Virus record (IMG/VR): IMGVR_UViG_3300042561_002102
DNA from: a virus
Lineage: Duplodnaviria; Caudoviricetes
Direction: 5' to 3' (one strand)
Length of the DNA: 64,000 bases
The first letter of the stretch is position 1. The number at the start of each line of letters is the position of its first letter. Of the stretch, positions 9,515-47,117 are shown piece after piece. The notes beneath the pieces were generated by a model. The model was not told where the DNA came from. It saw nothing but the letters and a program-made list of their open reading frames with translations, and did not search any database. The position numbers and the translations under genes are program-made.

Positions 9515-10021
9515 ATGGATAAAGAGATTATGAAACAAAGAATAAAACATATTAGAAAAACCATTAGAGATTTCATTAGTGAAAATCTACAAAATGAAAA
9601 ATTAATTCAACCCATCAAAGAGTCATCGGTTATGGATAAATTAGTTGATGAGCAGCGTTACTCAGATATGAATTATAATAATATTGTTATTGATTTTTTT
9701 ACAGGTATGAGAGGAATTGATGATTTATTTGAATCCATATACGAAGGATTATATGGTGGAGTTCAACGATATAGAGTAGAACCTAATGAAGGTAATTTTG
9801 ATAAAGATTTCTTAATTAAGTTTATTAAAATAAATCAGGGTGATAATGATTTTGATTATGAACTTGGAAGGATCGGTTATAGATTTCTAACTTCGGATGA
9901 AGGGTTAAAAGAATTATCAAAATTCTACCTAGACGAATTAAAAACATACAAAGATGAATATGTCTCAAATGAAGTTATTGAAAATTGTAAGAAATCGTTA
10001 ATTAATATAATCGGCACATAA
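9515..10021 (+). CDS. Hypothetical protein
   Basis: 168-aa ORF. Confidence 0.7.
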   Translation: MDKEIMKQRIKHIRKTIRDFISENLQNEKLIQPIKESSVMDKLVDEQRYSDMNYNNIVIDFFTGMRGIDDLFESIYEGLYGGVQRYRVEPNEGNFDKDFLIKFIKINQGDNDFDYELGRIGYRFLTSDEGLKELSKFYLDELKTYKDEYVSNEVIENCKKSLINIIGT

Positions 10022-10454: not shown

Positions 10455-11794
10455 TCAAGTCAAAGAAAACACAGAAGTCTTTAGCTTCTGTGATGAATTT
10501 GTAAATATTTTACTAAAAATAGTAAAAAAGTTTAAGAAAATACAAAAAGGAACTTTGAAACTTTAATATATACTAATATGTTAAAGTCGTATAAATATAA
10601 GATTAAACCAACAGAAGATCAAAAAGTCTTGTTAAACAAGCATTTTGGATCTATAAGGTTTGCTTATAATTACTTCTTGAATGAGCGTAAATTTGAATAC
10701 GAAACCAATAAACAAACCTTAAATTATAATGATAATTCTGCGACTTTGACAAAGCTTAAAAAACAAGAAGAATTCAAGTGGTTAAAGGAAATCAATAGCC
10801 AATCACTTCAACATTCACTCAAAAGTTTAGATGATTCTTATAATTCCTTTTTTAAGAAAAGAACTGGATTTCCTAAATTTAAATCTAAACATAGTAAAAA
10901 TTCATTTAAAGTTCCTCAATTTGTTAGGGTAAATGATGGATGTTTAATAATACCAAAGTTTAAAGATCCTATCAAGATGATCCAAGATAGAAAGTTTAAA
11001 GGTGATATTAGACAAGCTACATTATCAAAAACACCTACAAATGAGTATTTTGTAAGTATTTTAGTTGAAACAGATCACAAGAAGTTTGATAAGACCGGTA
11101 AAGAAGTTGGGATTGATCTAGGAATTAAAGATTTCGTTATAACTAGTGATGGACATAAGTATAAGAATAATAAATTTACAAAAACTTACGAAAATAAACT
11201 TACAGAAAATCAAAGACATTTGGCTAAAAAAGTTAGGGGAAGTAGTAAATATAACAAACAAAAACTTAAAGTAGCTAAACTACACAAGAAGATAACCAAT
11301 TCTCGTTTAGATAATCTACATAAAGTATCCACAGAGTTAGTCAGGAAGTATGATGTAATCTATCTTGAAGATCTAAACATCAAAGGAATGATTAAAAATC
11401 ATAAATTGGCTAAACACATTTCAGACGCTTCGTGGGGTAAATTCATTACCCTACTGGAATATAAAGCTATTTGGAATGACAAGCAGATAGTTAAAATCGA
11501 TAGATTTTTTCCATCCAGTAAGCAATGTAATAATTGTGGATTCATAAATCAAAATTTAAAATTGGATTGTAGGGAATGGACTTGTCCTTCCTGTAATACG
11601 GAGTTAGATAGAGATTTAAATGCTAGTAAAAATATCCTTAAAGAAGGAATTAAAACATTATCGTTTGGAACAGACGATTACAGACATGGAGCTCAAATAA
11701 GACCAGTTTTAACTGGCACAGGCGATGAAGTGTTTAAAAAGAAGGAGCTAATGTCTCCCGAAACACAACGAACTTTAGTCGTTGTGTAGTTCAT
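10455..11794 (+). mobile_element. Non-autonomous IS200/IS605-family (IS1341-like) element
   Basis: tnpB without tnpA; left hairpin cacagaag-tctttag-cttctgtg (10470-10492); right hairpin acacaacga-actttag-tcgttgtgt-agttcat (11763-11794). The exact left boundary is uncertain. Confidence 0.75.
10578..11789 (+). CDS. tnpB: RNA-guided endonuclease TnpB
   Basis: N-terminal HTH_OrfB-type sequence (YKYKIKPT..LLNKHFG..RFAYN); RuvC motifs GIDLG, EDL and DRDLNAS; CxxC..CxxC zinc ribbon. Confidence 0.95.
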   Translation: MLKSYKYKIKPTEDQKVLLNKHFGSIRFAYNYFLNERKFEYETNKQTLNYNDNSATLTKLKKQEEFKWLKEINSQSLQHSLKSLDDSYNSFFKKRTGFPKFKSKHSKNSFKVPQFVRVNDGCLIIPKFKDPIKMIQDRKFKGDIRQATLSKTPTNEYFVSILVETDHKKFDKTGKEVGIDLGIKDFVITSDGHKYKNNKFTKTYENKLTENQRHLAKKVRGSSKYNKQKLKVAKLHKKITNSRLDNLHKVSTELVRKYDVIYLEDLNIKGMIKNHKLAKHISDASWGKFITLLEYKAIWNDKQIVKIDRFFPSSKQCNNCGFINQNLKLDCREWTCPSCNTELDRDLNASKNILKEGIKTLSFGTDDYRHGAQIRPVLTGTGDEVFKKKELMSPETQRTLVVV

Positions 11795-19391: not shown

Positions 19392-19516
19392 CAGATATCA
19401 CAGATTTCAAAGGTTTTATTTTTTTGAGCAATCAGATACAAATACGAACCGGGTAAAATCGATACACTGGCCTAGAAAAAAAACCTCTTTATTTTCCAAA
19501 ATGAGTAATTATTCCG

Positions 19517-19684
19517 TATCTTTGCTACGTAGTTAAAATCTACGGGCGGGGTATAGAGGTTATACCGGGAGAGTAGACTCCAACCTGCTCTATATTTTAT
19601 CAAAAACATCCCAGGTTGGAGTCTACTCTCCCGCTACTCCCAAGAGTAGTCAGCCCCCTACCAGGTCATCTAACCTGAAATAGT
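19517..19684 (+). ncRNA. Structured repeat copy 1 (candidate ncRNA)
   Basis: Begins at TATCTTTG promoter motif; five hairpins including a perfect 21-bp stem; no ORF. Confidence 0.55.
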
Positions 19685-19708
19685 GGTGTAAATATACAAA
19701 TAATTATT

Positions 19709-21757
19709 TCATTTTTCATCTCTAAAACTAGAAAATCTTTTTATCTTATGTCCTATAGATTTTAGTAAAGAAGATTTATATCTTTTATTTTCAATTCCCC
19801 ATTTATCTGCTTCATTATTTAGTATATGTGAGGGGTATCCCTTTTGGTTTAATTTATCAAATAACTCCACAATTTGATCACGACTCAAAATCGATACCAA
19901 GGATACTCTAACAGTATTGTTTTCTATCAACTCCTCTGTCGATAATCTCTGTGCTAAATTATCTATAAATTGGGGTAGAACTTTAGATGCCCATTCTTTT
20001 ATCCCCGTCGTTCTTGAGTATAAAATATCTAAGAAATTTAAAAATTCTATTCTTCCACTAGATTTTATTATCCAATTAATTTTTTTTCCTATACCTGAAT
20101 CCATATCAAACCTGCACATATATTCACAAAGAACTCCCAACTTATTTTTGAAATAAAACTCGAACGAATTATCAAAATATAGTCTATGGTTTTTTTTCAA
20201 TCCCTGTAATGGTATTTCTAAATTAAACGACCACACAGACTCATCCAGTTTTCTTTCAATAGTCCACCCACCGGATGGGTTAAAATATTCATCCGATAGA
20301 CTCCACTGTAAAGCTTTATCAAATAAAATAAAAGTATCTATTGATAAACCCTCATCAAGGGATAAAGCCATAGACTCTATTATATCTTTTGAATCTGTTT
20401 CACCGCGGAAAATTCCTTCGAGTAAATACCACAAATCCCATAAACCAAAAAATTTTTTGAATTTTTGTAAAATTTTTACATAATATTTTTTATCTGAAAA
20501 TAAGATATAACTAGACAATCTCGGGCTCATTATTCCTTCGCCATTTTCTACCTTAATTTGGACATGTTTAGATAAAATTTGAAAAATAATTTCATCTCTA
20601 TCAAAATTTTTGTAATCTCTTGTTTTTTTATCGAAAATACTATTTACTCTGGTAAAAAGTTTTTCGGCTGTATCATAGTCTAGAGTTTTTGTTTTTTTCA
20701 AAAAATACAAAATATCTGATATATCTGCATTACCTAAATAATGGTAAATACCCACCTTTTCATCTACTATCTTACAATTAAATGGTTCTCTTGATCCTTT
20801 TACATGGTCATAGAGTCTAAAACACAAATATTCCGGATATCTTTGCCATTCCTCTCTATTAGATAAAAATCCACCAGAGGTATTTAATTTCACGCTGAAT
20901 TTTCCCATATCCCAATTTTCATATGGAAAGTATAAATAACTAAAGGTATCCACAAATGGGTAAAGAGTAAAGTCTAGGTATCTGAGTTTTAGTTTTATAT
21001 CTACATTAGAGATCCAATTCTCATTGTTTTGTTTTATAACATATTTTTTACCAGGAAATTTACTCTCTATAAACTTTTCTATACCGCCAATTTTTTTTAT
21101 GGGTTCATCATTAGAATAAATTCTATCTACAAAATAATCTACACCACCCTGACCATCAAGTTTCCAGACCAGAGCTCTTGTGGATGCCTTACCCTCGTCT
21201 AAACGGACCAAAAGAGATATAACATCTGAATTTTTTGTATAAAGATTAAAGGTATTTGGATCTTTATCTCTCATGCAACTTTTGTAGAGTGTTGTTCCCT
21301 CAACTATATTTGTGTTGTTGATATCATAATATTTTGCAATGTCATCACCACTTACTAATTGATATTCATCTTGGTGGGAATCTTTCAATTTACCCCCAAT
21401 AAAATTTACAAAATCACCAAACTCACCCTGATCTATAATAATTTCGGGCTCGATAGATACTAAAATTTTTTGAAGAGCTTTTCCTAGTTTTATCTCTTGC
21501 TGTTTACCTCTATATTCTTGGAATATTTTTCCAGAATCATAATATAAATATTCTATCTCATTATTTGGATAATCAACCTCTGACCTGGCCGCTGATAGAA
21601 TTAAGTTTGCCCATTTTACCCACTCTTCTCTAGAAGAGGAACTTATCAAATTTTTTAATACATCTAAAATAGTAGAAGAAATATCAATTTTACTCTCATT
21701 TAAAAACTCTTTGCTAGATTCATGAACAAATGTTCTAAATAATTTAATCAATTTCAT
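19709..21757 (-). CDS. Large phage protein, SCM..RALVW..DRIY family
   Basis: Motifs shared with 42903-44192; TAATATATA upstream; MKLIKLFRTFVHE start. Confidence 0.75.
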   Translation of the reverse strand: MKLIKLFRTFVHESSKEFLNESKIDISSTILDVLKNLISSSSREEWVKWANLILSAARSEVDYPNNEIEYLYYDSGKIFQEYRGKQQEIKLGKALQKILVSIEPEIIIDQGEFGDFVNFIGGKLKDSHQDEYQLVSGDDIAKYYDINNTNIVEGTTLYKSCMRDKDPNTFNLYTKNSDVISLLVRLDEGKASTRALVWKLDGQGGVDYFVDRIYSNDEPIKKIGGIEKFIESKFPGKKYVIKQNNENWISNVDIKLKLRYLDFTLYPFVDTFSYLYFPYENWDMGKFSVKLNTSGGFLSNREEWQRYPEYLCFRLYDHVKGSREPFNCKIVDEKVGIYHYLGNADISDILYFLKKTKTLDYDTAEKLFTRVNSIFDKKTRDYKNFDRDEIIFQILSKHVQIKVENGEGIMSPRLSSYILFSDKKYYVKILQKFKKFFGLWDLWYLLEGIFRGETDSKDIIESMALSLDEGLSIDTFILFDKALQWSLSDEYFNPSGGWTIERKLDESVWSFNLEIPLQGLKKNHRLYFDNSFEFYFKNKLGVLCEYMCRFDMDSGIGKKINWIIKSSGRIEFLNFLDILYSRTTGIKEWASKVLPQFIDNLAQRLSTEELIENNTVRVSLVSILSRDQIVELFDKLNQKGYPSHILNNEADKWGIENKRYKSSLLKSIGHKIKRFSSFRDEK

Positions 21758-21814
21758 AAAGTTATATATTAAAAAAAGTAACTTTTTTACACATTCCAAA
21801 ATAACTTACTAAAA

Positions 21815-21823
21815 TGTGGATAA
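21815..21823 (-). promoter_or_regulatory. DnaA-box consensus (TGTGGATAA on plus strand)
   Basis: Perfect match to TTATCCACA; an inverted partner lies at 22062-22070. Confidence 0.45.
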
Positions 21824-21852
21824 TTTAGTTTGTAAAAATAGAATATAGTTCG

Positions 21853-22032
21853 TATCTTTGCTACGTAGTTAAAATCTACGGGCGGGGTATAGAGGTTATA
21901 CCGGGAGAGTATACTCCAACCTGCTCTGAATTTTATATAAAATGGTGTAGGTTGGAGTATACTCTCCCGCCACATCAGAATGTAGTCAACCCACTATCAA
22001 GGAATACGCCTTGAAATAGTTATACAAAGATA
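21853..22032 (+). ncRNA. Structured repeat copy 2 (candidate ncRNA)
   Basis: Homologous to copy 1 with compensatory stem changes; convergent TATCTTTG at 22025-22032 on the minus strand. Confidence 0.55.
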
Positions 22033-22061
22033 CAAAGTAATCTCGAATGGAAAAAATAAAC

Positions 22062-22070
22062 TTATCCACA
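22062..22070 (+). promoter_or_regulatory. DnaA-box consensus TTATCCACA
   Basis: Perfect 9-mer. Confidence 0.45.
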
Positions 22071-22276
22071 TTTTACCTCTTTCAAATATTCCTGAATCAA
22101 GTATTGAATCAATCGAGATTTATTAAGATTCATTCTTTGAATGTGATCTAGAAATTCTTTTCTTACTTCTTTTTCAATTGTAAAATACTCTTTTTCTCTA
22201 GAGGGTCTCATAGGTATGATATTTATTTTTACAGAAAAACAAACCTTCTCTTTTTATTTATAAAGAAAAAACAAGT

Positions 22277-23143
22277 ATGAAATTAGATCCTCTTTACAAA
22301 TGGACAGGTGGAAAAAGAAAAGAAATTAAAACATTTTCTCCCTGGTACCCCGACTTTGTATCTGGTGGTGATTATACATATGTAGAACCTTTTTTCGGTG
22401 GTGGTGCGGTTTATTGGTCCTTGAATGCACCAAGAAATATAATTAACGATGTAGATTTAGAACTCATTAATTTTTTAGAGCAAATGAAGTGTAATCCCGA
22501 CACTATTGTGAAAGGGGTAAATGAACTCGGTGAAAAATTATCTCAAATCTCAAAAAGGGAAAAGAAAAAGGAAATATCTATATCCTTGGCAAAAGAGCTC
22601 AGAGGAGAATTCTATTATCCACTCAGAAACTTAGATAGAAAAGATGGTCTTTCAAGTCTATCTCCCAGTGATAGAGCTTTTCGTTTTTATGTTGTAAATC
22701 AACTAGCATTTAACGGGATGAGAAGATTTAATTCTCGTGGTGAGTTTAATGTTCCCTATGGTAATTATAGAACAATTTCACTTAATTTTACGCAAGAACA
22801 TTTTGATCTCTTACAGAGAACTCGTATTTCTAGTGGTAATTATCTTGAAGTGGTACAAAGAGAAGATAAAAAAAATACCTTTATCTATCTCGATCCACCC
22901 TATACTAGAGAATTCAATGAATATTCACATGGACATGAATTTGGTCCGAAAGAGCAGATAGAGTTAAGAGATGCTATTGTAGGTATAAAAAACGCCAAGG
23001 TCATGCTCATAATCAACTCAGATGATTTTACGAGGTCTCTCTACCAAGATATGATAGTTCATAAATACGGACTGAAGTATTCTACCAATATCAAAAATAG
23101 ATTTGATAATGGAGTAGAGCATCTTGTTGTTTGTAATTATTAA
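22277..23143 (+). CDS. dam: Dam-family N6-adenine DNA methyltransferase
   Basis: KWTGGK, EPFFGGGAV, FNVPYG and YLDPPY motifs; the target sequence cannot be determined from motifs. Confidence 0.9.
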   Translation: MKLDPLYKWTGGKRKEIKTFSPWYPDFVSGGDYTYVEPFFGGGAVYWSLNAPRNIINDVDLELINFLEQMKCNPDTIVKGVNELGEKLSQISKREKKKEISISLAKELRGEFYYPLRNLDRKDGLSSLSPSDRAFRFYVVNQLAFNGMRRFNSRGEFNVPYGNYRTISLNFTQEHFDLLQRTRISSGNYLEVVQREDKKNTFIYLDPPYTREFNEYSHGHEFGPKEQIELRDAIVGIKNAKVMLIINSDDFTRSLYQDMIVHKYGLKYSTNIKNRFDNGVEHLVVCNY

Positions 23144-23252
23144 CTCTGAACCAGGGTTCTTCCGAAATCTTTCATTAGTGTGTATAATCATATGGTGTAT
23201 ATTGATTTTTGGTGCCTAAAATACAATTTTCAGATATTCATATATATGGAAT

Positions 23253-23807
23253 ATGAAAGATTTTAGAAGAAGGTTCATATTAACTACGTTAGGGGAATAT
23301 CTTTATGAAAATATTGAGTTTTTGTTAGATAAAGAAAGTGACGAATATAACCATATCTCTAATGATTATGGGATTCAGGACATAACTAAAGTTCATTCCC
23401 ATATTCTTGAGTTTTCTAAAGAGGCGATCGAAACTTTTAGAGATAAAGTTGATTTATTCAAGGATATTAGAATAGTATTCGTTGATAATATTGGTCGTGG
23501 TGCCCTGGGTAGATTTAGGAGTGGTACAAGTTCATCCACACCAATAGTTCTCCTATCAGAAAAAGACATACAAGACGGTTCAAAAAAATACAATGTCCCA
23601 CTACGGGTTGCTGTTGAAACAACAATATTTCACGAACTTGGACATGCTATATGTGAATTAGAATATGATGTTTTTGATCACAAATATCTCGAATATAGTG
23701 ATGAAGAGGAATGGGTTGAAAATTTTGCTTATGATTTAAGTAACTACGGCTATATACCACAAGATTTAGAAAACTTTATTGAGAAGTTTAAAAAGCAAAT
23801 ACCCTAA
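23253..23807 (+). CDS. HExxH zinc metallopeptidase-like protein
   Basis: TIFHELGHA...EEWVE motif. Confidence 0.65.
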   Translation: MKDFRRRFILTTLGEYLYENIEFLLDKESDEYNHISNDYGIQDITKVHSHILEFSKEAIETFRDKVDLFKDIRIVFVDNIGRGALGRFRSGTSSSTPIVLLSEKDIQDGSKKYNVPLRVAVETTIFHELGHAICELEYDVFDHKYLEYSDEEEWVENFAYDLSNYGYIPQDLENFIEKFKKQIP

Positions 23808-24171
23808 AGAAAAAGTGGATAACTTCGTTTGTTGGTGTGGTAATTATTTCATATCTTTGCTACGTAGTTAAAATCTACGGGCGGGGTATAGAGGTTATAC
23901 CGGGAGAGTATACTCCAGCCTGCTCTGGATTTTATATAAAATGGTGTAGGTTGGAGTCTACTCTCCCGCTACATCCGGATGTAGTCAGCCCCCTACCAAG
24001 GAATACGCCCTGAAATAGTTATACAAAGATACGAAGTAATCTCAAATAAAAAAGGTAAAGTTATCCACACACATATCAAGAATAAAAAACAATTACCAGG
24101 TTCAATTTTTATCGGGGTTAGATCTATTGAAATATTCAAATACCACAAGATTTAGAAAACTTTATTGAGAA
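23754..24171. repeat. 32-bp direct repeat pair flanking structured repeat copy 3
   Basis: ATACCACAAGATTTAGAAAACTTTATTGAGAA at 23754-23785 and 24140-24171. Confidence 0.9.
23852..24031 (+). ncRNA. Structured repeat copy 3 (mosaic of copies 1 and 2)
   Basis: Same layout; convergent CAAAGATA; TTATCCACA at 24061-24069. Confidence 0.55.
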
Positions 24172-25764: not shown

Positions 25765-25858
25765 ATTATTTTTTTGGTATGCAAATATAACCCATGTTCC
25801 AAATATTTTGAGAAAAATATATCCACTTAGTTTTTGTGGATAACTTCCTCTTTTTTAA

Positions 25859-38631: not shown

Positions 38632-40509
38632 ATGAAAAAAGACGTAATCATCGGTATTGACCTAGGAACAACTAACTCAGCGGTAGCTATTGTTGAGGCG
38701 GGAGATTCAGTGATCATTCCAAACTCTGAAGGCCGCAGAACAACACCATCGGTCGTTGCCTTCACCGATAAAGACCGAAGAATCGGAGATCCTGCTAAAA
38801 GACAAGCAGTGACCAATCCCCAAAAAACCATCTACTCTATTAAGAGATTTATTGGTAAGAGCTGGGCAGCATCGAAAGACGAAGCTGGCAAAGTTCCCTA
38901 CACGGTGAAATCAAGCTCAAACTCTACACCCGTCGTATCGATTGATGATAGAGATTATACCCCTCAAGAAATCTCAGCGATGATCCTTCAGAAAATGAAA
39001 AAAACCGCCGAAGATTATCTAGGTTACGAAGTTACACGAGCTGTTATTACCGTTCCTGCTTACTTCGGAGATGCCGAAAGAGGCGCAACGATGGAAGCCG
39101 GTCAAATCGCTGGGCTTAAAGTCGAGAGGATTATCAACGAACCTACAGCAGCTGCCCTGGCCTATGGTTTAGATAAAAAAGGTCAAGACTCAAAAATCTT
39201 GGTTTTCGACTGCGGAGGTGGAACCCACGACGTATCAGTTCTTGAAATTGGTGATGGTGTATTCGAGGTAAAATCAACCGATGGTGATACCCATCTAGGT
39301 GGTGATGACTTTGATAATGCGATCATTGCCTGGATGACCGGTGAGTTCAAAAGTGACACTGGTATCGATCTAACGAAAGATCCAATGGCATTACAACGAC
39401 TGAAAGACGCAGCTGAAAAAGCAAAGATCGAACTTTCTTCTTCACTTTCAACCGAGGTCAATCTTCCCTATATTACGGTGAAGGATAACGTTCCTCAACA
39501 CTTTGTGAAATCTCTTACCCGTGCTAAGTTCGATCAACTTACCAAATCACTCGTTGATAGAGCAGTGGCCTGTGCGAAAAGTGCTCTAAAATCTGCTGGT
39601 CTTAAGCCAAGTGAGATTGATGAAGTAGTTTTAGTAGGTGGTTCTACTCGCATTCCAGCTATTCAAGATGCTGTCGAGAGTTTTATTGGTAAAAAAGCCA
39701 ATAAATCTGTAAATCCAGATGAAGTCGTAGCAATGGGAGCAGCTATTCAAGGTGCTGTTCTTACCGGTGATGTTAATGATGTTCTTCTACTAGACGTTAT
39801 TCCACTCTCGTTCGGTATTGAAACCATGGGTGGTGTAATGACCAAACTTATCGAGGCCAACACAACTATTCCAGTAAGAAAGCAGCAAACTTTCTCAACA
39901 GCTGCTGATAATCAAAACTCAGTTGAAATCCACGTTCTTCAAGGTGAAAGGCCGATGGCATCAGATAACCGTTCGATAGGCAGGTTCCATCTTGATGGTA
40001 TTATGCCAGCTCCGAGGGGTGTTCCACAAATCGAGGTTAGTATTGATATCGACGCTAATGGTATCCTAAGTGTTAAAGCTCAAGATAAAGCTACTGGTAA
40101 AGAAAACAAAATTCGTATCGAAGGTGGTTCTTCTCTAACACCAGAGGAAATCCAACGTATGAAAGACGAGGCTATTCAGAACGAGGCTGAGGATAAACGT
40201 AAGATGGAAACTGCCGAGCTTGTCAATAAGTGTGATACTCAAGTATTCACTACTAAAAAATCACTCGAAGAGTGGAAGGACAAGTTTACACCCGAGCAGC
40301 TAGAAGAGCTTCAAAAACTGGTCGGCCAGCTCGAAGAGGCTCTCTCTCAACGAGACGAGACTAGGATGAAAGAAGCTTCGTCTTCTCTTGAGTCGACTTT
40401 CTCCAAAATTTCTACCGAGATTTATTCTAAAATCAGTAGTGAAGAAGGTTCTAGTTCAAGTGGTGTAGAAGATGTAGAATATACAACGGTTGAAGATCAA
40501 GACAAGTAA
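38632..40509 (+). CDS. dnaK: Hsp70 chaperone DnaK
   Basis: [27 protein letters not shown] and GGGTHDVS motifs. Confidence 0.98.
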
Positions 40510-45581: not shown

Positions 45582-46502
45582 TCAAGAGGCCATAAACTCA
45601 CTTCTGAACTTTAGAAGTGCTAAATCTTTTGCTTTACATTCTAGCTCAACATCGATATCGTAACCATAATCATCAAAGTTCTCAAAAAGATAGTCGGCGT
45701 GTGCTTCGAGTTTAGATGATTGATCTTCATGAATTTTTCTAGAAGATGAATGATGACATAGTTGCTTTTCTTGCCAGGTCTGACGAGCCAACTCGAAAGC
45801 TGACCTCTGATCGAGATCATCAGAAAAACAAGCGTGATGAAAAAAATCAAATACAATAGGCGTTCCTATCTTATCCCAAATCATGGACTTTAGCATTTGG
45901 GTTGAGAACTGATTTTTTGAGTCGTCGTTTTCTACTGTTAGTCGTTTTTTGGTAGTTGCTGATAACCTCTCAAAATTTTGACAAAATCTCTCGGCTGCTT
46001 CTTCTCTGCTGGGTTTGGTTACACCAACATGAACATTGATTGAATAGTAGGTCGATGCCTCGAGACCCATGAGATCCATTAGCTGTGAATGTTTATCGAG
46101 TTCGTCGATTGTTTTTTCTACTACATCTGGATTTTGACTAGCTAATACACAAAACGGTGGTGCGTGAAACGATAATCTCATACCGTGTAGCTTGGCAAAA
46201 TCACCAGCAGATTTTAGAAGAGCTTTTATCCTATCAAATCTAGGTAATGTCGTTACATCGTAATGTGTAAGCCAAGGGAACATCTCTGAGGACATTCTAT
46301 ATACAAAGATGTTGTTTTGTAAATTATACTCAAGGATTTTGATTAAATCTTCTAAATTTTTGGTAGCTAGTTCGCTAACACCTTCAAGACCTTTCGTGTC
46401 AAAAGTTTTTTTGACCATACCACGATTCACTGATACTTGATCTACTTTTTTGACACCTTCGTTGATACCAAGGCAGATACAGCAATATCCTATTTTTGAC
46501 AT
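45582..46502 (-). CDS. uvsE: UV-damage endonuclease (UvsE/UVDE)
   Basis: IGYCCI, YRMSSEMFP, RLSFH, LTVENDD, PIVFDFFHH and MLE-like VELECKAKD motifs. Confidence 0.92.
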   Translation of the reverse strand: MSKIGYCCICLGINEGVKKVDQVSVNRGMVKKTFDTKGLEGVSELATKNLEDLIKILEYNLQNNIFVYRMSSEMFPWLTHYDVTTLPRFDRIKALLKSAGDFAKLHGMRLSFHAPPFCVLASQNPDVVEKTIDELDKHSQLMDLMGLEASTYYSINVHVGVTKPSREEAAERFCQNFERLSATTKKRLTVENDDSKNQFSTQMLKSMIWDKIGTPIVFDFFHHACFSDDLDQRSAFELARQTWQEKQLCHHSSSRKIHEDQSSKLEAHADYLFENFDDYGYDIDVELECKAKDLALLKFRSEFMAS

Positions 46503-46535: not shown

Positions 46536-47117
46536 TTAATTATTTACTCTTTCGACATCATCAAGTGGTATTTCTATAAAGTTTTCTCTACCAAAAATTT
46601 TCACAGAAACTTTAACTGAATTCTTTTGTCGGTTCATTTCTTTCACATCACCTTCAAATCCAGAAAATGGACCACCTAAAATACGAACTCTTTCACCTGA
46701 TGAGTATTCCAAAGCCGTAGCTGTATCTGTTTCGTCAATTTTAGCTCTCATTTTCTCAAGTTCATACTGCTTAACCCAGATAGGGTTTCCAGCGGCATCT
46801 TTAAGAAGACCAGCAGCTCCGGGCGTAGATTTTACCCAGTATTCAAGCTCACCTACATATTTAGTTTCTACGAAGATATAGCCAGGAAAAAGAACTTTTT
46901 CTCTCATGATTCTTTGGCCATTTCTATTGGTGATTGTTTTTTCTGTAGGATAAAAAGCTTCTATAATCGGTAGATCACCTCTGTCTTTATCTCGGTTCAT
47001 TCTTTCGAGTAGGGTTCTTTCTCTGCCAGATTGAACTCTGAGCGTATACCAATTGGTTTTTTTCGGATCAATTTCTGATGTATCTACACCGTCTATTCTG
47101 GATTTTGTATTTGACAT
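46536..47117 (-). CDS. nusG: Transcription factor NusG
   Basis: WYTLRVQSGRE, LFPGYIFV, KOW motif GERVRILGGPFSGFEG and VSVKIFGR. Confidence 0.92.
   Translation of the reverse strand: MSNTKSRIDGVDTSEIDPKKTNWYTLRVQSGRERTLLERMNRDKDRGDLPIIEAFYPTEKTITNRNGQRIMREKVLFPGYIFVETKYVGELEYWVKSTPGAAGLLKDAAGNPIWVKQYELEKMRAKIDETDTATALEYSSGERVRILGGPFSGFEGDVKEMNRQKNSVKVSVKIFGRENFIEIPLDDVERVNN

What the first reader, a model, noticed from the sequence alone, without database searches (positions are those of the whole stretch)
19517..24031. Three-copy ~170-nt structured element with compensatory changes: candidate new ncRNA or ssDNA site
Seen, after TATCTTTG: hairpins GTAG/CTAC, GGTATA/TATACC, a 20-21-bp stem GGGAGAGTA(G/T)ACTCCAACCT/AGGTTGGAGT(C/A)TACTCTCCC in which G-C swaps to T-A between copies 1 and 2, CTACTC/GAGTAG versus CTACAT/ATGTAG, and CAGGT/ACCTG versus TCAAGG/CCTTGA. 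GGGCGGGG can pair with two alternative downstream C-tracts. Copy 3 is a mosaic of copies 1 and 2. There is no ORF. Inference: the fold is under selection. It could be a regulatory or decoy RNA, a replication primer RNA, or module-shuffling direct repeats around the Dam and HNH genes.
Basis: partly seen in the sequence, partly recalled or inferred. Interest (0 to 1): 0.8.

Follow-up and report, generated by a model that had tools for sequence, protein, structure and literature searches.

The report
Structured linker repeats between phage gene cassettes
The three hairpin-rich repeats are copies of a ~260-bp intergenic "linker", carrying host-type promoters, that separates swappable accessory-gene cassettes in a lineage of huge freshwater phages; it is a larger, more elaborate analogue of the promoter/stem-loop cassettes (PeSLs) known from T4-type phages, and whether it also makes a functional RNA is not shown.

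Summary
Three direct copies (cores 19517-19690, 21853-22026, 23852-24025) share a five-helix fold (z about -8 on either strand), match no Rfam family and hold no conserved ORF.

The unit is larger than reported, about 260 bp. The core lies between ~50-nt imperfect inverted arms. Each arm carries an inward-facing Bacteroidota-type promoter box, TTTG/TTTT-N20-TATCTTTG.

One metagenome scan found 26 lake contigs with about 40 more copies, up to four per contig. All lie between genes, and all copies on a contig point the same way.

Across 32 distinct copies, hairpins P2, P4 and P5 show compensatory changes. The 21-bp stem and the G/C tracts are sequence-invariant. Wobble pairs favour neither strand.

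Cargo between copies is diverse: GmrSD, AIPR, type IIG R-M, Dam, HNH, and many proteins starting MKHIKLFExF. Homology between contigs breaks at the element's edges, and the copies themselves are heavily mosaic (Rm >= 20).

Best reading (about 0.6): a PeSL-like composite promoter/hairpin linker through which homologous recombination shuffles cassettes.

A trans-acting ncRNA is not excluded, since no RNA data cover the element. Origin, MITE and attC-like readings are disfavoured.

Another first-reader note in this scan covered the same stretch.

The parts
19478..19700 (+). Copy 1 of the linker. The core is 19517-19690. The left arm is diverged (-33 reads TTTT) and the right arm is largely lost. 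It lies between the last LRR gene (+, ends 19391) and the stop of the 682/696-aa gene (-, ends 19709).
   Evidence: 199 bits with R2
21810..22075 (+). Copy 2, a complete unit. The left arm is 21810-21860, the core 21853-22026 and the right arm 22025-22075.
   Evidence: 51-nt inverted arms, 73% complementary
23815..24068 (+). Copy 3, a complete unit. GTGGATAACTT at 23815-23825 is mirrored by AAGTTATCCAC at 24058-24068. The core is 23852-24025. It is a mosaic of copy-1-like and copy-2-like blocks.
21829..21860 (+). Bacteroidota-type promoter on the + strand, TTTG-N20-TATCTTTG, reading into the core. Copy 3 has the same at 23828-23859.
   Evidence: 10 matches in the window against 2.5 expected. 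The boxes are conserved in 30 of 32 family copies.
22025..22032 (-). The same -7 box, TATCTTTG, on the minus strand. It also reads into the core, and has TTTT in place of the -33 TTTG at the same 20-nt spacing. Copy 3 has it at 24024-24031.
21902..21969 (.). Long palindrome P3. Two 21-nt arms, each containing the 10-bp palindrome GAGTATACTC, flank a ~26-nt variable AT-rich centre. The arms are almost invariant in all 32 copies. Copy 1 has it at about 19567-19633 and copy 3 at about 23901-23968.
   Evidence: I2, 100% complementary
21886..21902 (.). Hairpin P2 (GGTATA / TATACC). Its loop-closing pair is A-T in 29 copies and G-C in 3.
21969..21986 (.). Hairpin P4. It occurs in four haplotypes that all keep the stem. 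Pair 124-134 is C-G or T-A, and pair 126-132 is T-A or C-G.
21998..22013 (.). Hairpin P5. It occurs in about six haplotypes, and four of its six pairs show compensated double changes.
21880..21992 (.). G tract (GGGCGGGG, from 21880) and C tract (about 21989-21994). They could close a four-way junction (P1). Both are invariant, so there is no covariation for or against the pairing.
22062..22070 (+). TTATCCACA (the DnaA-box consensus) at the outer tip of the right arm. Mirror copies lie at 21815-21823 (-) and 24061-24069 (+), with one more at 25835-25843 (-). In copy 2 it overlaps the stop codon of the 49-aa ORF.
   Evidence: 4 matches against 0.78 expected. It is present in only part of the family.

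Best explanation
The repeats are copies of a composite intergenic linker, about 260 bp long. The linker separates accessory-gene cassettes in a hypervariable region of a lineage of huge freshwater phages that probably infect Bacteroidota.

Each unit has two imperfect inverted arms. Each arm carries a host sigma-A-type promoter box that reads inward across a pseudo-symmetric core. The order is hairpin, G tract, hairpin, long palindrome, hairpin, C tract, hairpin.

Shown by comparison:
- The linker is the shared joint between otherwise unrelated cassettes.
- Copies recombine with one another constantly.
- Copies are always in direct orientation. That is what integration and excision of 'linker + cargo' units by homologous recombination would produce.

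Inferred:
- The hairpins insulate or terminate transcription, or stabilise transcript ends, in both directions.
- The two promoters give host-RNA-polymerase (early) transcription across the linker into whichever cassette lies beyond it.
- The invariant 21-bp arms (GAGTATACTC sites) and the G/C tracts are recognised by sequence, probably by a protein.

This is the working principle of the PeSL cassettes of T4-type phages and of the linkers around the T-even internal-protein loci.
For: Family and position:
- A metagenome scan gave 26 contigs. The covariance model found about 40 forward copies, up to 4 per contig at about 1.2-2.4 kb spacing. Seven contigs break off inside a copy.
- Every copy is intergenic.
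- In all 11 sources with two or more copies, the copies are direct. Chance is about 2^-17 by my calculation.

Cassette exchange:
- 87 homology end-points between contigs did not lie at contig ends. Of these, 13 fall 0-50 nt left of the core, 4 fall 175-225 nt from its start and 2 more at 225-275. Only 2 fall inside the core.
- Hudson-Kaplan Rm is at least 20 within 175 nt, and the variable blocks assort almost freely.
- Dam occurs in both orientations and with different neighbours. L008 lacks the 184-aa gene, with the junction at the base of P3.

Cargo:
- It is accessory and diverse: GmrSD, Eco57I-type, NucS_C, N6_N4 MTase, Dam, AIPR, ResIII, T5orf172, NUDIX, HNH and lectin.
- About 34 of 92 cargo proteins start with an MKHIKLFExF-type tag and follow a TAATATATA box.

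Signals:
- Copies 2 and 3 carry a full Bacteroidota promoter consensus.
- The arms have identical spacing on both sides.
- Both strands fold strongly.
- 95.4% of cells are paired. Nine pairs have double changes against 5.5 +/- 1.3 in shuffles (6/500). Slid controls give 32-44% paired.

Precedent:
- PeSLs are host-type promoter plus stem-loop units, often GGGG...CCCC. They flank ORFans in hyperplastic regions and mediate modular shuffling. Analogous elements flank the T-even internal-protein loci (PMC2839356; PMC4122927).
Against: - No transcript, promoter or terminator activity was observed.
- No helix is followed by a U run on either strand, so classical intrinsic termination is not evident.
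- The better promoter (full TTTG -33 box) usually points against the flow of the neighbouring genes. About four-fifths of right-hand neighbours converge on it. This is unlike PeSLs, whose promoter serves the next gene.
- The element is three to four times larger and far more elaborate than a PeSL. The compensatory changes and the invariant 21-bp arms suggest a function beyond providing homology.
- No circular or deletion products were seen. The raw-read runs did not contain the phage, and no contig has matching ends.
- The contigs come from related phage populations, so the copies are not independent.
Confidence: 0.6

Rival explanations
1. The element is a gene for a trans-acting structured RNA. 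Either it is a ~170-215-nt four-way-junction RNA made from the + strand promoter, or it is a pair of convergent, partly complementary RNAs made from both arms. The function would be regulatory or decoy, for example anti-defence. On this reading cassette shuffling is only a by-product of multi-copy homology.
For: - A consensus host promoter sits directly before the core in copies 2 and 3 and in nearly all family members.
- The fold is very stable.
- Three hairpins show compensatory changes.
- Sequence is strongly conserved in segments that lie between freely varying blocks.
- No Rfam family matches, so it would be new.
Against: - The covarying helices are all short local hairpins, which would form equally in either RNA strand or in DNA.
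- The junction-closing helix and the 21-bp stem do not covary.
- Variable G.U-type cells (about 21) are no more common than A.C-type cells (about 33) on the + strand.
- No terminator follows the core.
- One stem position is a T.C mismatch in 7 of 32 copies.
- A hybrid copy (L008:2139-2319) lacks the whole 5' half.
- Two metatranscriptome runs (X19, X20) hold pieces of the neighbouring genes but none of the element. This is weak evidence.
- Related phages and 80 other phage loci have no copy.
Confidence: 0.18
2. The element is a site-specific recombination site, like an integron attC. It would be recognised as a folded single strand or a cruciform by a dedicated phage recombinase or structure-specific nuclease, which inserts and excises cassettes.
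For: - Cassette architecture with conserved, structured, imperfectly palindromic boundary elements.
- Strictly direct orientation.
- Invariant palindromic arms that look like protein-binding sites.
- HNH and EndoVII-like nucleases among the neighbours.
Against: - No integrase, resolvase or transposase was found among 61 cargo proteins or among 42 further window ORFs.
- Crossovers are spread along the whole element rather than at one point (Rm >= 20).
- The edges of shared homology vary (-41, -30, -25; +217 to +271).
- Sequence identity between copies is high (about 89% mean column identity), unlike attC sites, and is ample for general recombination.
Confidence: 0.08
3. The element is a non-autonomous transposon (MITE-like, comparable to Neisseria Correia elements) that has spread through intergenic regions of the phage.
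For: - About 50-nt imperfect terminal inverted arms, a size of about 260 bp, many copies and an intergenic position.
- A TnpB gene lies elsewhere in the window.
Against: - No target-site duplication is visible at the ends I inspected.
- The ends are heterogeneous: many copies lack the GTGGATAA tip.
- All copies in every multi-copy contig share one orientation.
- The copies are confined to one hypervariable region. Only three lie in the 64-kb window, all within 4.5 kb.
Confidence: 0.04
4. The element is a replication origin or primer-RNA site. Convergent promoters would make G-rich primer RNAs, and DnaA boxes at the tips would recruit host DnaA.
For: - TTATCCACA boxes lie at the tips of copies 2 and 3.
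- Inward promoters are each followed by a G tract on both strands.
- Another first-reader note raised the same idea.
Against: - Three to four copies sit 1-2.4 kb apart, and many more occur per population. That is not how origins are arranged.
- The DnaA-like box is missing or altered in roughly half of the copies on each side.
- In copy 2 the box overlaps a stop codon.
- There is no AT-rich unwinding element beyond the 26-nt centre of P3.
- Base skew in the window simply follows gene orientation.
Confidence: 0.04

Closest known systems
PeSLs (promoter-early stem-loops) of T4-type phages (Arbiol et al. 2010, PMC2839356; Comeau et al. 2014, PMC4122927)
   Same: - Both are repeated intergenic composites of a host-consensus promoter plus a stable stem-loop, often built on G and C tracts.
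- Both are concentrated in hyperplastic regions and flank non-essential ORFs.
- Both act as shared linkers at which related genomes differ by insertion, deletion or replacement of cassettes.
- No dedicated recombinase is known for either.
   Different: - There is no sequence homology.
- The host promoter type is Bacteroidota (TTTG / TAnnTTTG), not sigma-70.
- The unit is about 260 bp with five conserved helices and ~50-nt inverted arms.
- Two promoters face each other across the hairpins, instead of one promoter serving the next gene.
- Compensatory changes occur in three hairpins.
- Promoter, terminator and mini-circle activities are untested here.
Linkers of the T-even internal-protein (IP) loci (Repoila et al. 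1994, as described in PMC2839356)
   Same: Both are hypervariable loci. Unrelated proteins in them share a short N-terminal tag and an upstream promoter, and are bounded by promoter/stem-loop elements that confine shuffling to the locus.
   Different: - The tag here (MKHIKLFExF-type) is only similar in style to the T4 capsid-targeting sequence. Packaging and cleavage are not shown.
- Many cargo genes here are untagged nucleases or methylases.
Integron attC sites
   Same: Both are structured, imperfectly palindromic elements at cassette boundaries, with all cassettes' sites in one orientation.
   Different: - attC sites conserve structure rather than sequence, and recombine at one point through IntI acting on a folded strand.
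- Here the sequence is about 89% conserved, crossovers are spread along the element, cassettes have their own promoters, and no integrase was found.
Correia / NEMIS elements of Neisseria and other promoter-bearing MITEs
   Same: Both are short intergenic repeats with inverted arms that carry promoter boxes, and whose transcripts fold into long hairpins.
   Different: - There is no target duplication.
- Orientation is uniform.
- The copies sit at cassette boundaries in a phage.
- The promoters face inward.
Repeat regions between modules of Campylobacter group II phages (PMC4546147)
   Same: Both are similar repeats that separate genome modules and are thought to drive module rearrangement.
   Different: Those are kilobase-scale arrays of short units between large modules. 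They are not single structured units between one- to four-gene cassettes.

Membership tests
PeSL-type composite regulatory/recombination cassette (functional class, not a homology family) | Contains a match to the host's vegetative promoter consensus | tested here: met
   TTTG-N20-TATCTTTG lies before copies 2 and 3. It is conserved in 30 of 32 family copies. This is sequence evidence only.
PeSL-type composite regulatory/recombination cassette (functional class, not a homology family) | Adjacent stable stem-loop(s) | tested here: met
   Five helices, including a perfect 21-bp stem. z is -8.3 and -7.5 on the two strands.
PeSL-type composite regulatory/recombination cassette (functional class, not a homology family) | Repeated in intergenic positions of a hypervariable region, flanking accessory ORFs | tested here: met
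PeSL-type composite regulatory/recombination cassette (functional class, not a homology family) | Differences between related genomes begin and end at the element | tested here: met
   Breakpoints cluster at -41 to -25 and at +217 to +221 relative to the core start. The copies are mosaic.
PeSL-type composite regulatory/recombination cassette (functional class, not a homology family) | Promoter drives the downstream gene, and the stem-loop terminates upstream transcription (shown by reporters for PeSLs) | not testable with these tools
   The geometry differs. The promoters face inward, and the consensus one mostly opposes the neighbouring genes. No helix is followed by a U run.
PeSL-type composite regulatory/recombination cassette (functional class, not a homology family) | Excised circles of 'element + ORF' | tested here: inconclusive
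   The raw-read runs did not contain the phage. No contig has matching ends.
Any Rfam RNA family | Covariance-model score at or above the gathering threshold | tested here: not met
   There were 0 matches at gathering score in the window. Only sub-threshold miRNA-hairpin look-alikes matched the long stem.
Integron attC | Neighbouring tyrosine-recombinase integrase | tested here: not met
   No recombinase family was found in 61 cargo proteins or in 42 further window ORFs. The rest of the genome could not be searched.
Integron attC | A single crossover point in a conserved core site | tested here: not met
   Rm is at least 20, with the intervals spread over the whole 175 nt.
MITE | Target-site duplication and insertion in either orientation | tested here: not met
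   No duplication was seen at the ends of copies 2 and 3 or of the relatives I inspected. Orientation is uniform in 11 of 11 multi-copy sources.
DnaA-dependent origin | A cluster of DnaA boxes next to an AT-rich unwinding element, at one or a few sites per genome | tested here: not met
   There are at most two boxes per unit, and they are absent or altered in about half of the copies. Many units lie 1-2.4 kb apart.

The most novel reading that the evidence does not exclude
The linker may be more than passive homology. On this reading its face-to-face host promoters make two structured, partly complementary RNAs, or one four-way-junction RNA. Its invariant palindromic arms would be bound by a phage factor. 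The unit would then actively control when cassettes are expressed, or would act in trans as a decoy or regulator. Together with the tagged cargo it would form a dedicated phage platform for acquiring and exchanging injected-protein and defence genes.
Probability: 0.2. Interest if true: 0.8.

Novelty: new variant of a known kind. Interest (0 to 1): 0.55.

Why it matters
Huge phages carry large sets of accessory genes, and how these are gained and exchanged is poorly understood.

This locus shows a clear, sequence-defined cassette system outside the T4 group. A conserved structured linker joins interchangeable cargo, which includes defence-type nucleases and methylases and proteins with a shared N-terminal tag.

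It extends the PeSL / modular-linker idea to Bacteroidota phages. It also offers an unusually information-rich linker whose parts can be tested one by one: two promoters, five helices and invariant palindromic sites.

For annotation, it explains why assemblies of these phages break at this repeat. Seven of the 26 contigs end inside a copy.

Tried and rejected
- Rfam at gathering and at permissive thresholds gave nothing meaningful.
- There are no tRNA or tmRNA genes in the window.
- blastn against the phage collection gave no match.
- Exact and gapped core patterns gave 0 matches in viral contigs and in genome contigs.
- No whole genome is held for the window.
- Related IMG/VR phages were found through the 184-aa protein (74% identity). 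Neither covariance model finds a copy in them, including one record that is 90% complete.
- Eighty phage loci with MKHIKLFE-tagged genes also have no copy. One such array has plain short intergenic spacers.
- The 682-aa protein and a tagged 279-aa cargo protein have no relatives in viral contigs.
- RNA evidence: two metatranscriptome runs hold only pieces of the Dam and 184-aa genes. Two raw-read DNA runs did not contain the phage. No conclusion on expression, circles or deletions follows.
- Strand assignment from wobble pairs showed no asymmetry.
- The conserved-ORF test found no frame open in all copies.
- The circular-contig test found no terminal overlaps.
- The DnaA-box/origin reading and the MITE reading were considered and set aside, for the reasons given under the rival explanations.

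Full report
**1. Observation**

The window holds three direct copies of a structured element, with cores at 19517-19690, 21853-22026 and 23852-24025 on the + strand.
- A 43-nt probe from the 5' part matches exactly three times, against 0 expected.
- The first 59 nt are identical in all copies.
- Copy 1 folds at -74 kcal/mol (z = -8.3). Its complement folds at -78 kcal/mol (z = -7.5).
Copy 3 has T.C at that position and is a mosaic of the other two.
- No Rfam family matches, there is no tRNA or tmRNA, and no reading frame stays open across the family.

**2. The unit is larger and pseudo-symmetric**

- Copies 2 and 3 have the full TTTG-N20-TATCTTTG. This pattern occurs 10 times in the window against 2.5 expected.
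- To the right of the core, the same -7 box lies on the minus strand, with TTTT in the -33 place at the same 20-nt spacing.
- Beyond both boxes lie mirrored GTGGATAA(C/T)TT tips.
- The repeat finder reports 51-nt arms at 21810-21860 and 22025-22075, 73% complementary.
- The order of parts is the same read from either end: promoter box, 4-6 variable nt, small hairpin, G tract, small hairpin, long palindrome. This explains why the covariance models also hit the reverse strand over their full length, at 50-76 bits.
- The tips contain the DnaA-box consensus TTATCCACA, which occurs 4 times in the window against 0.78 expected. In the wider family this tip is present in only part of the copies. In copy 2 it overlaps the stop codon of a 49-aa ORF.

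**3. Context**

No whole genome is held. Earlier notes of this scan describe the genome as a huge freshwater phage. Several of my own results fit a large phage of Bacteroidota:
- host-type promoters;
- a T9SS sorting domain, Hsp70 and TnpB;
- NusG, IF3, UvdE and Hsp20;
- phage nuclease and HNH families.

The genes around the copies are:
- an unknown 682/696-aa protein (-);
- a 49-aa ORF (-), which I read by eye as ribbon-helix-helix-like;
- Dam (+);
- an unknown 184-aa protein (+);
- an HNH protein (-).

**4. Relatives**

Exact and gapped patterns found nothing in the viral or genome collections.

One gapped pattern in the metagenome collection found 26 lake-water contigs from several projects. 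The model built from the three copies then found about 40 forward-strand copies, up to four per contig at about 1.2-2.4 kb spacing. Seven contigs end inside a copy, as expected for a repeat that breaks assemblies.

Phages related through the 184-aa protein (74% identity) have no copy. One of those records is 90% complete. Eighty other phage loci with similarly tagged genes have none either. As far as these collections show, the family belongs to a narrow lineage.

**5. Structure test**

I counted pairs on 32 distinct copies (alignment A4), using local hairpins plus the junction-closing helix as the structure.
- 95.4% of cells pair, against 32-44% when the partners are slid.
- Nine pairs carry changes on both sides, against 5.5 +/- 1.3 in shuffles (6 of 500 reach nine).

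The double changes are distributed as follows:
- Most lie in the three small hairpins:
 - P2: A-T to G-C in the loop-closing pair.
 - P4: two clear pairs (plus a third in a single copy), across four haplotypes.
 - P5: four pairs, across about six haplotypes.
- One further double change is the single G-C in P3 (window copy 1).
- The 21-bp stem P3 and helix P1 (GGGC/GCCC) are otherwise sequence-invariant, so they say nothing about pairing.
- One P3 position is a T.C mismatch in 7 of 32 copies.
- The centre of P3 varies freely, and its two sides assort independently.

Among variable cells, G.T-type cells (about 21) do not outnumber A.C-type cells (about 33) on the + strand. Neither the strand nor the RNA-versus-DNA question can therefore be decided.

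The near-invariant arms each contain the 10-bp palindrome GAGTATACTC, next to blocks that vary freely. I infer that the arms are constrained by sequence, which suggests recognition by a protein.

**6. What the copies do in genomes**

- Every copy is intergenic.
- In all 11 sources with two or more copies, the copies point the same way. My estimate for this arising by chance is about 2^-17.
- Neighbouring genes run mostly opposite to the element's + strand, about four-fifths by my count, but not always.

Cargo between copies is diverse and accessory. It includes:
- GmrSD, Eco57I-type and N6_N4 methylases, Dam;
- NucS_C, AIPR, ResIII, T5orf172;
- NUDIX, HNH, lectin-like proteins, and many unknowns.

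About 34 of 92 complete cargo proteins begin with an MKHIKLFExF-type tag. They are preceded by TAATATATA close to the start codon.

The same cargo occurs with different neighbours and in both orientations, Dam for example.

Of 87 ends of long inter-contig alignments that are not at contig ends:
- 13 fall 0-50 nt left of the core;
- 4 fall 175-225 nt from the core start and 2 more at 225-275, which is the right edge of the unit;
- only 2 fall inside the core.

This is the pattern expected if the unit is the shared joint between exchangeable cassettes.

Inside the unit, at least 20 recombination events are needed to explain 32 copies, and the intervals are spread along its length. That fits general homologous recombination or gene conversion rather than a single crossover site.

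No recombinase family was found among the cargo or in the window.

**7. Expression**

Two metatranscriptome runs hold short contigs of the Dam and 184-aa genes only. Two raw-read DNA runs did not contain the phage. A second run search with the element alone gave only small word shares. Nothing can be said about transcripts, circles or deletions.

**8. Interpretation**

The best-supported reading is a composite linker of the PeSL kind. PeSLs are host-consensus promoters joined to stem-loops, often GGGG...CCCC. They crowd the hyperplastic regions of T4-type phages, flank ORFans, terminate and start transcription, and mediate modular shuffling. Analogous elements bound the T-even internal-protein loci (PMC2839356; PMC4122927).

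The present element shares the logic but not the sequence, and it differs in several ways:
- its size, about 260 bp;
- five conserved helices;
- inverted arms with two promoters facing each other;
- compensated hairpins;
- invariant palindromic sites.

The recombination role is shown by comparison. The transcriptional roles are inferred. Those roles are insulation or termination in both directions, and host-polymerase transcription across the linker into the cassette beyond.

I put this reading at about 0.6. The rivals are:
- a trans-acting RNA, at about 0.18, which remains open;
- attC-like site-specific recombination, at about 0.08;
- a MITE, at about 0.04;
- a replication origin, at about 0.04.

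The last three are disfavoured by specific tests (see the membership table).

**9. Novelty**

This is a new variant of a known kind. It matters as a well-defined cassette-exchange system in huge Bacteroidota phages, with a linker rich enough in features to dissect experimentally.

Noticed in passing
L005:11878 (-), L013, L023, L025 and others; window 21757 (-): Many unrelated cargo proteins start with nearly the same ~10 residues (MKHIKLFE[T/S/N]F; the window's 682-aa protein starts MKLIKLFRTF). They follow a TAATATATA box. In style it resembles the T4 capsid-targeting sequence, but nothing was tested.
   Followed up: partly
window 23754-23785 and 24140-24171: An exact 32-nt duplicate of the 3' end of the 184-aa gene lies to the right of copy 3, followed by a different short C-terminal coding remnant. 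It looks like a scar of an earlier cassette exchange across the linker.
   Followed up: partly
L008:2139-2319: This is a hybrid copy in which the Dam gene runs straight into the base of the long stem. The 184-aa gene and the left half of the linker (promoter, H1, G tract) are missing relative to the window.
   Followed up: partly
window 22062-22211 (-): A 49-aa ORF lies divergent from Dam. By eye it looks like a ribbon-helix-helix DNA-binding protein; the only database hit is a weak Pox_VLTF3 match (E 0.005). Its stop codon lies inside the TTATCCACA tip of copy 2.
   Followed up: no
window 46536-47114 (-), 45582-46499 (-), 38632-40509 (+): The phage encodes a NusG/KOW homologue, a UvdE UV-endonuclease and Hsp70; IF3 and Hsp20 domains also occur elsewhere in the window. 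A phage NusG paralogue could bear on read-through of the hairpin-rich linkers, but no link was tested.
   Followed up: no
window 10578-11789 (+): A TnpB (IS605 OrfB / Cas12f-like) gene lies in the cassette-like region upstream. It is unrelated to the linker by sequence.
   Followed up: no
L006:323-556, L007:339-572, L012:238-471, L017:240-473: A conserved 77-aa ORF (starting MGKINNMNRDNK...) sits immediately right of the linker in four contigs with different neighbours. It has no family assignment.
   Followed up: no
L001:7543-7794 and 9880-9960: The related IMG/VR phage carries tRNA-like tandem repeats near its homologue of the 184-aa gene, in place of the linker.
   Followed up: no
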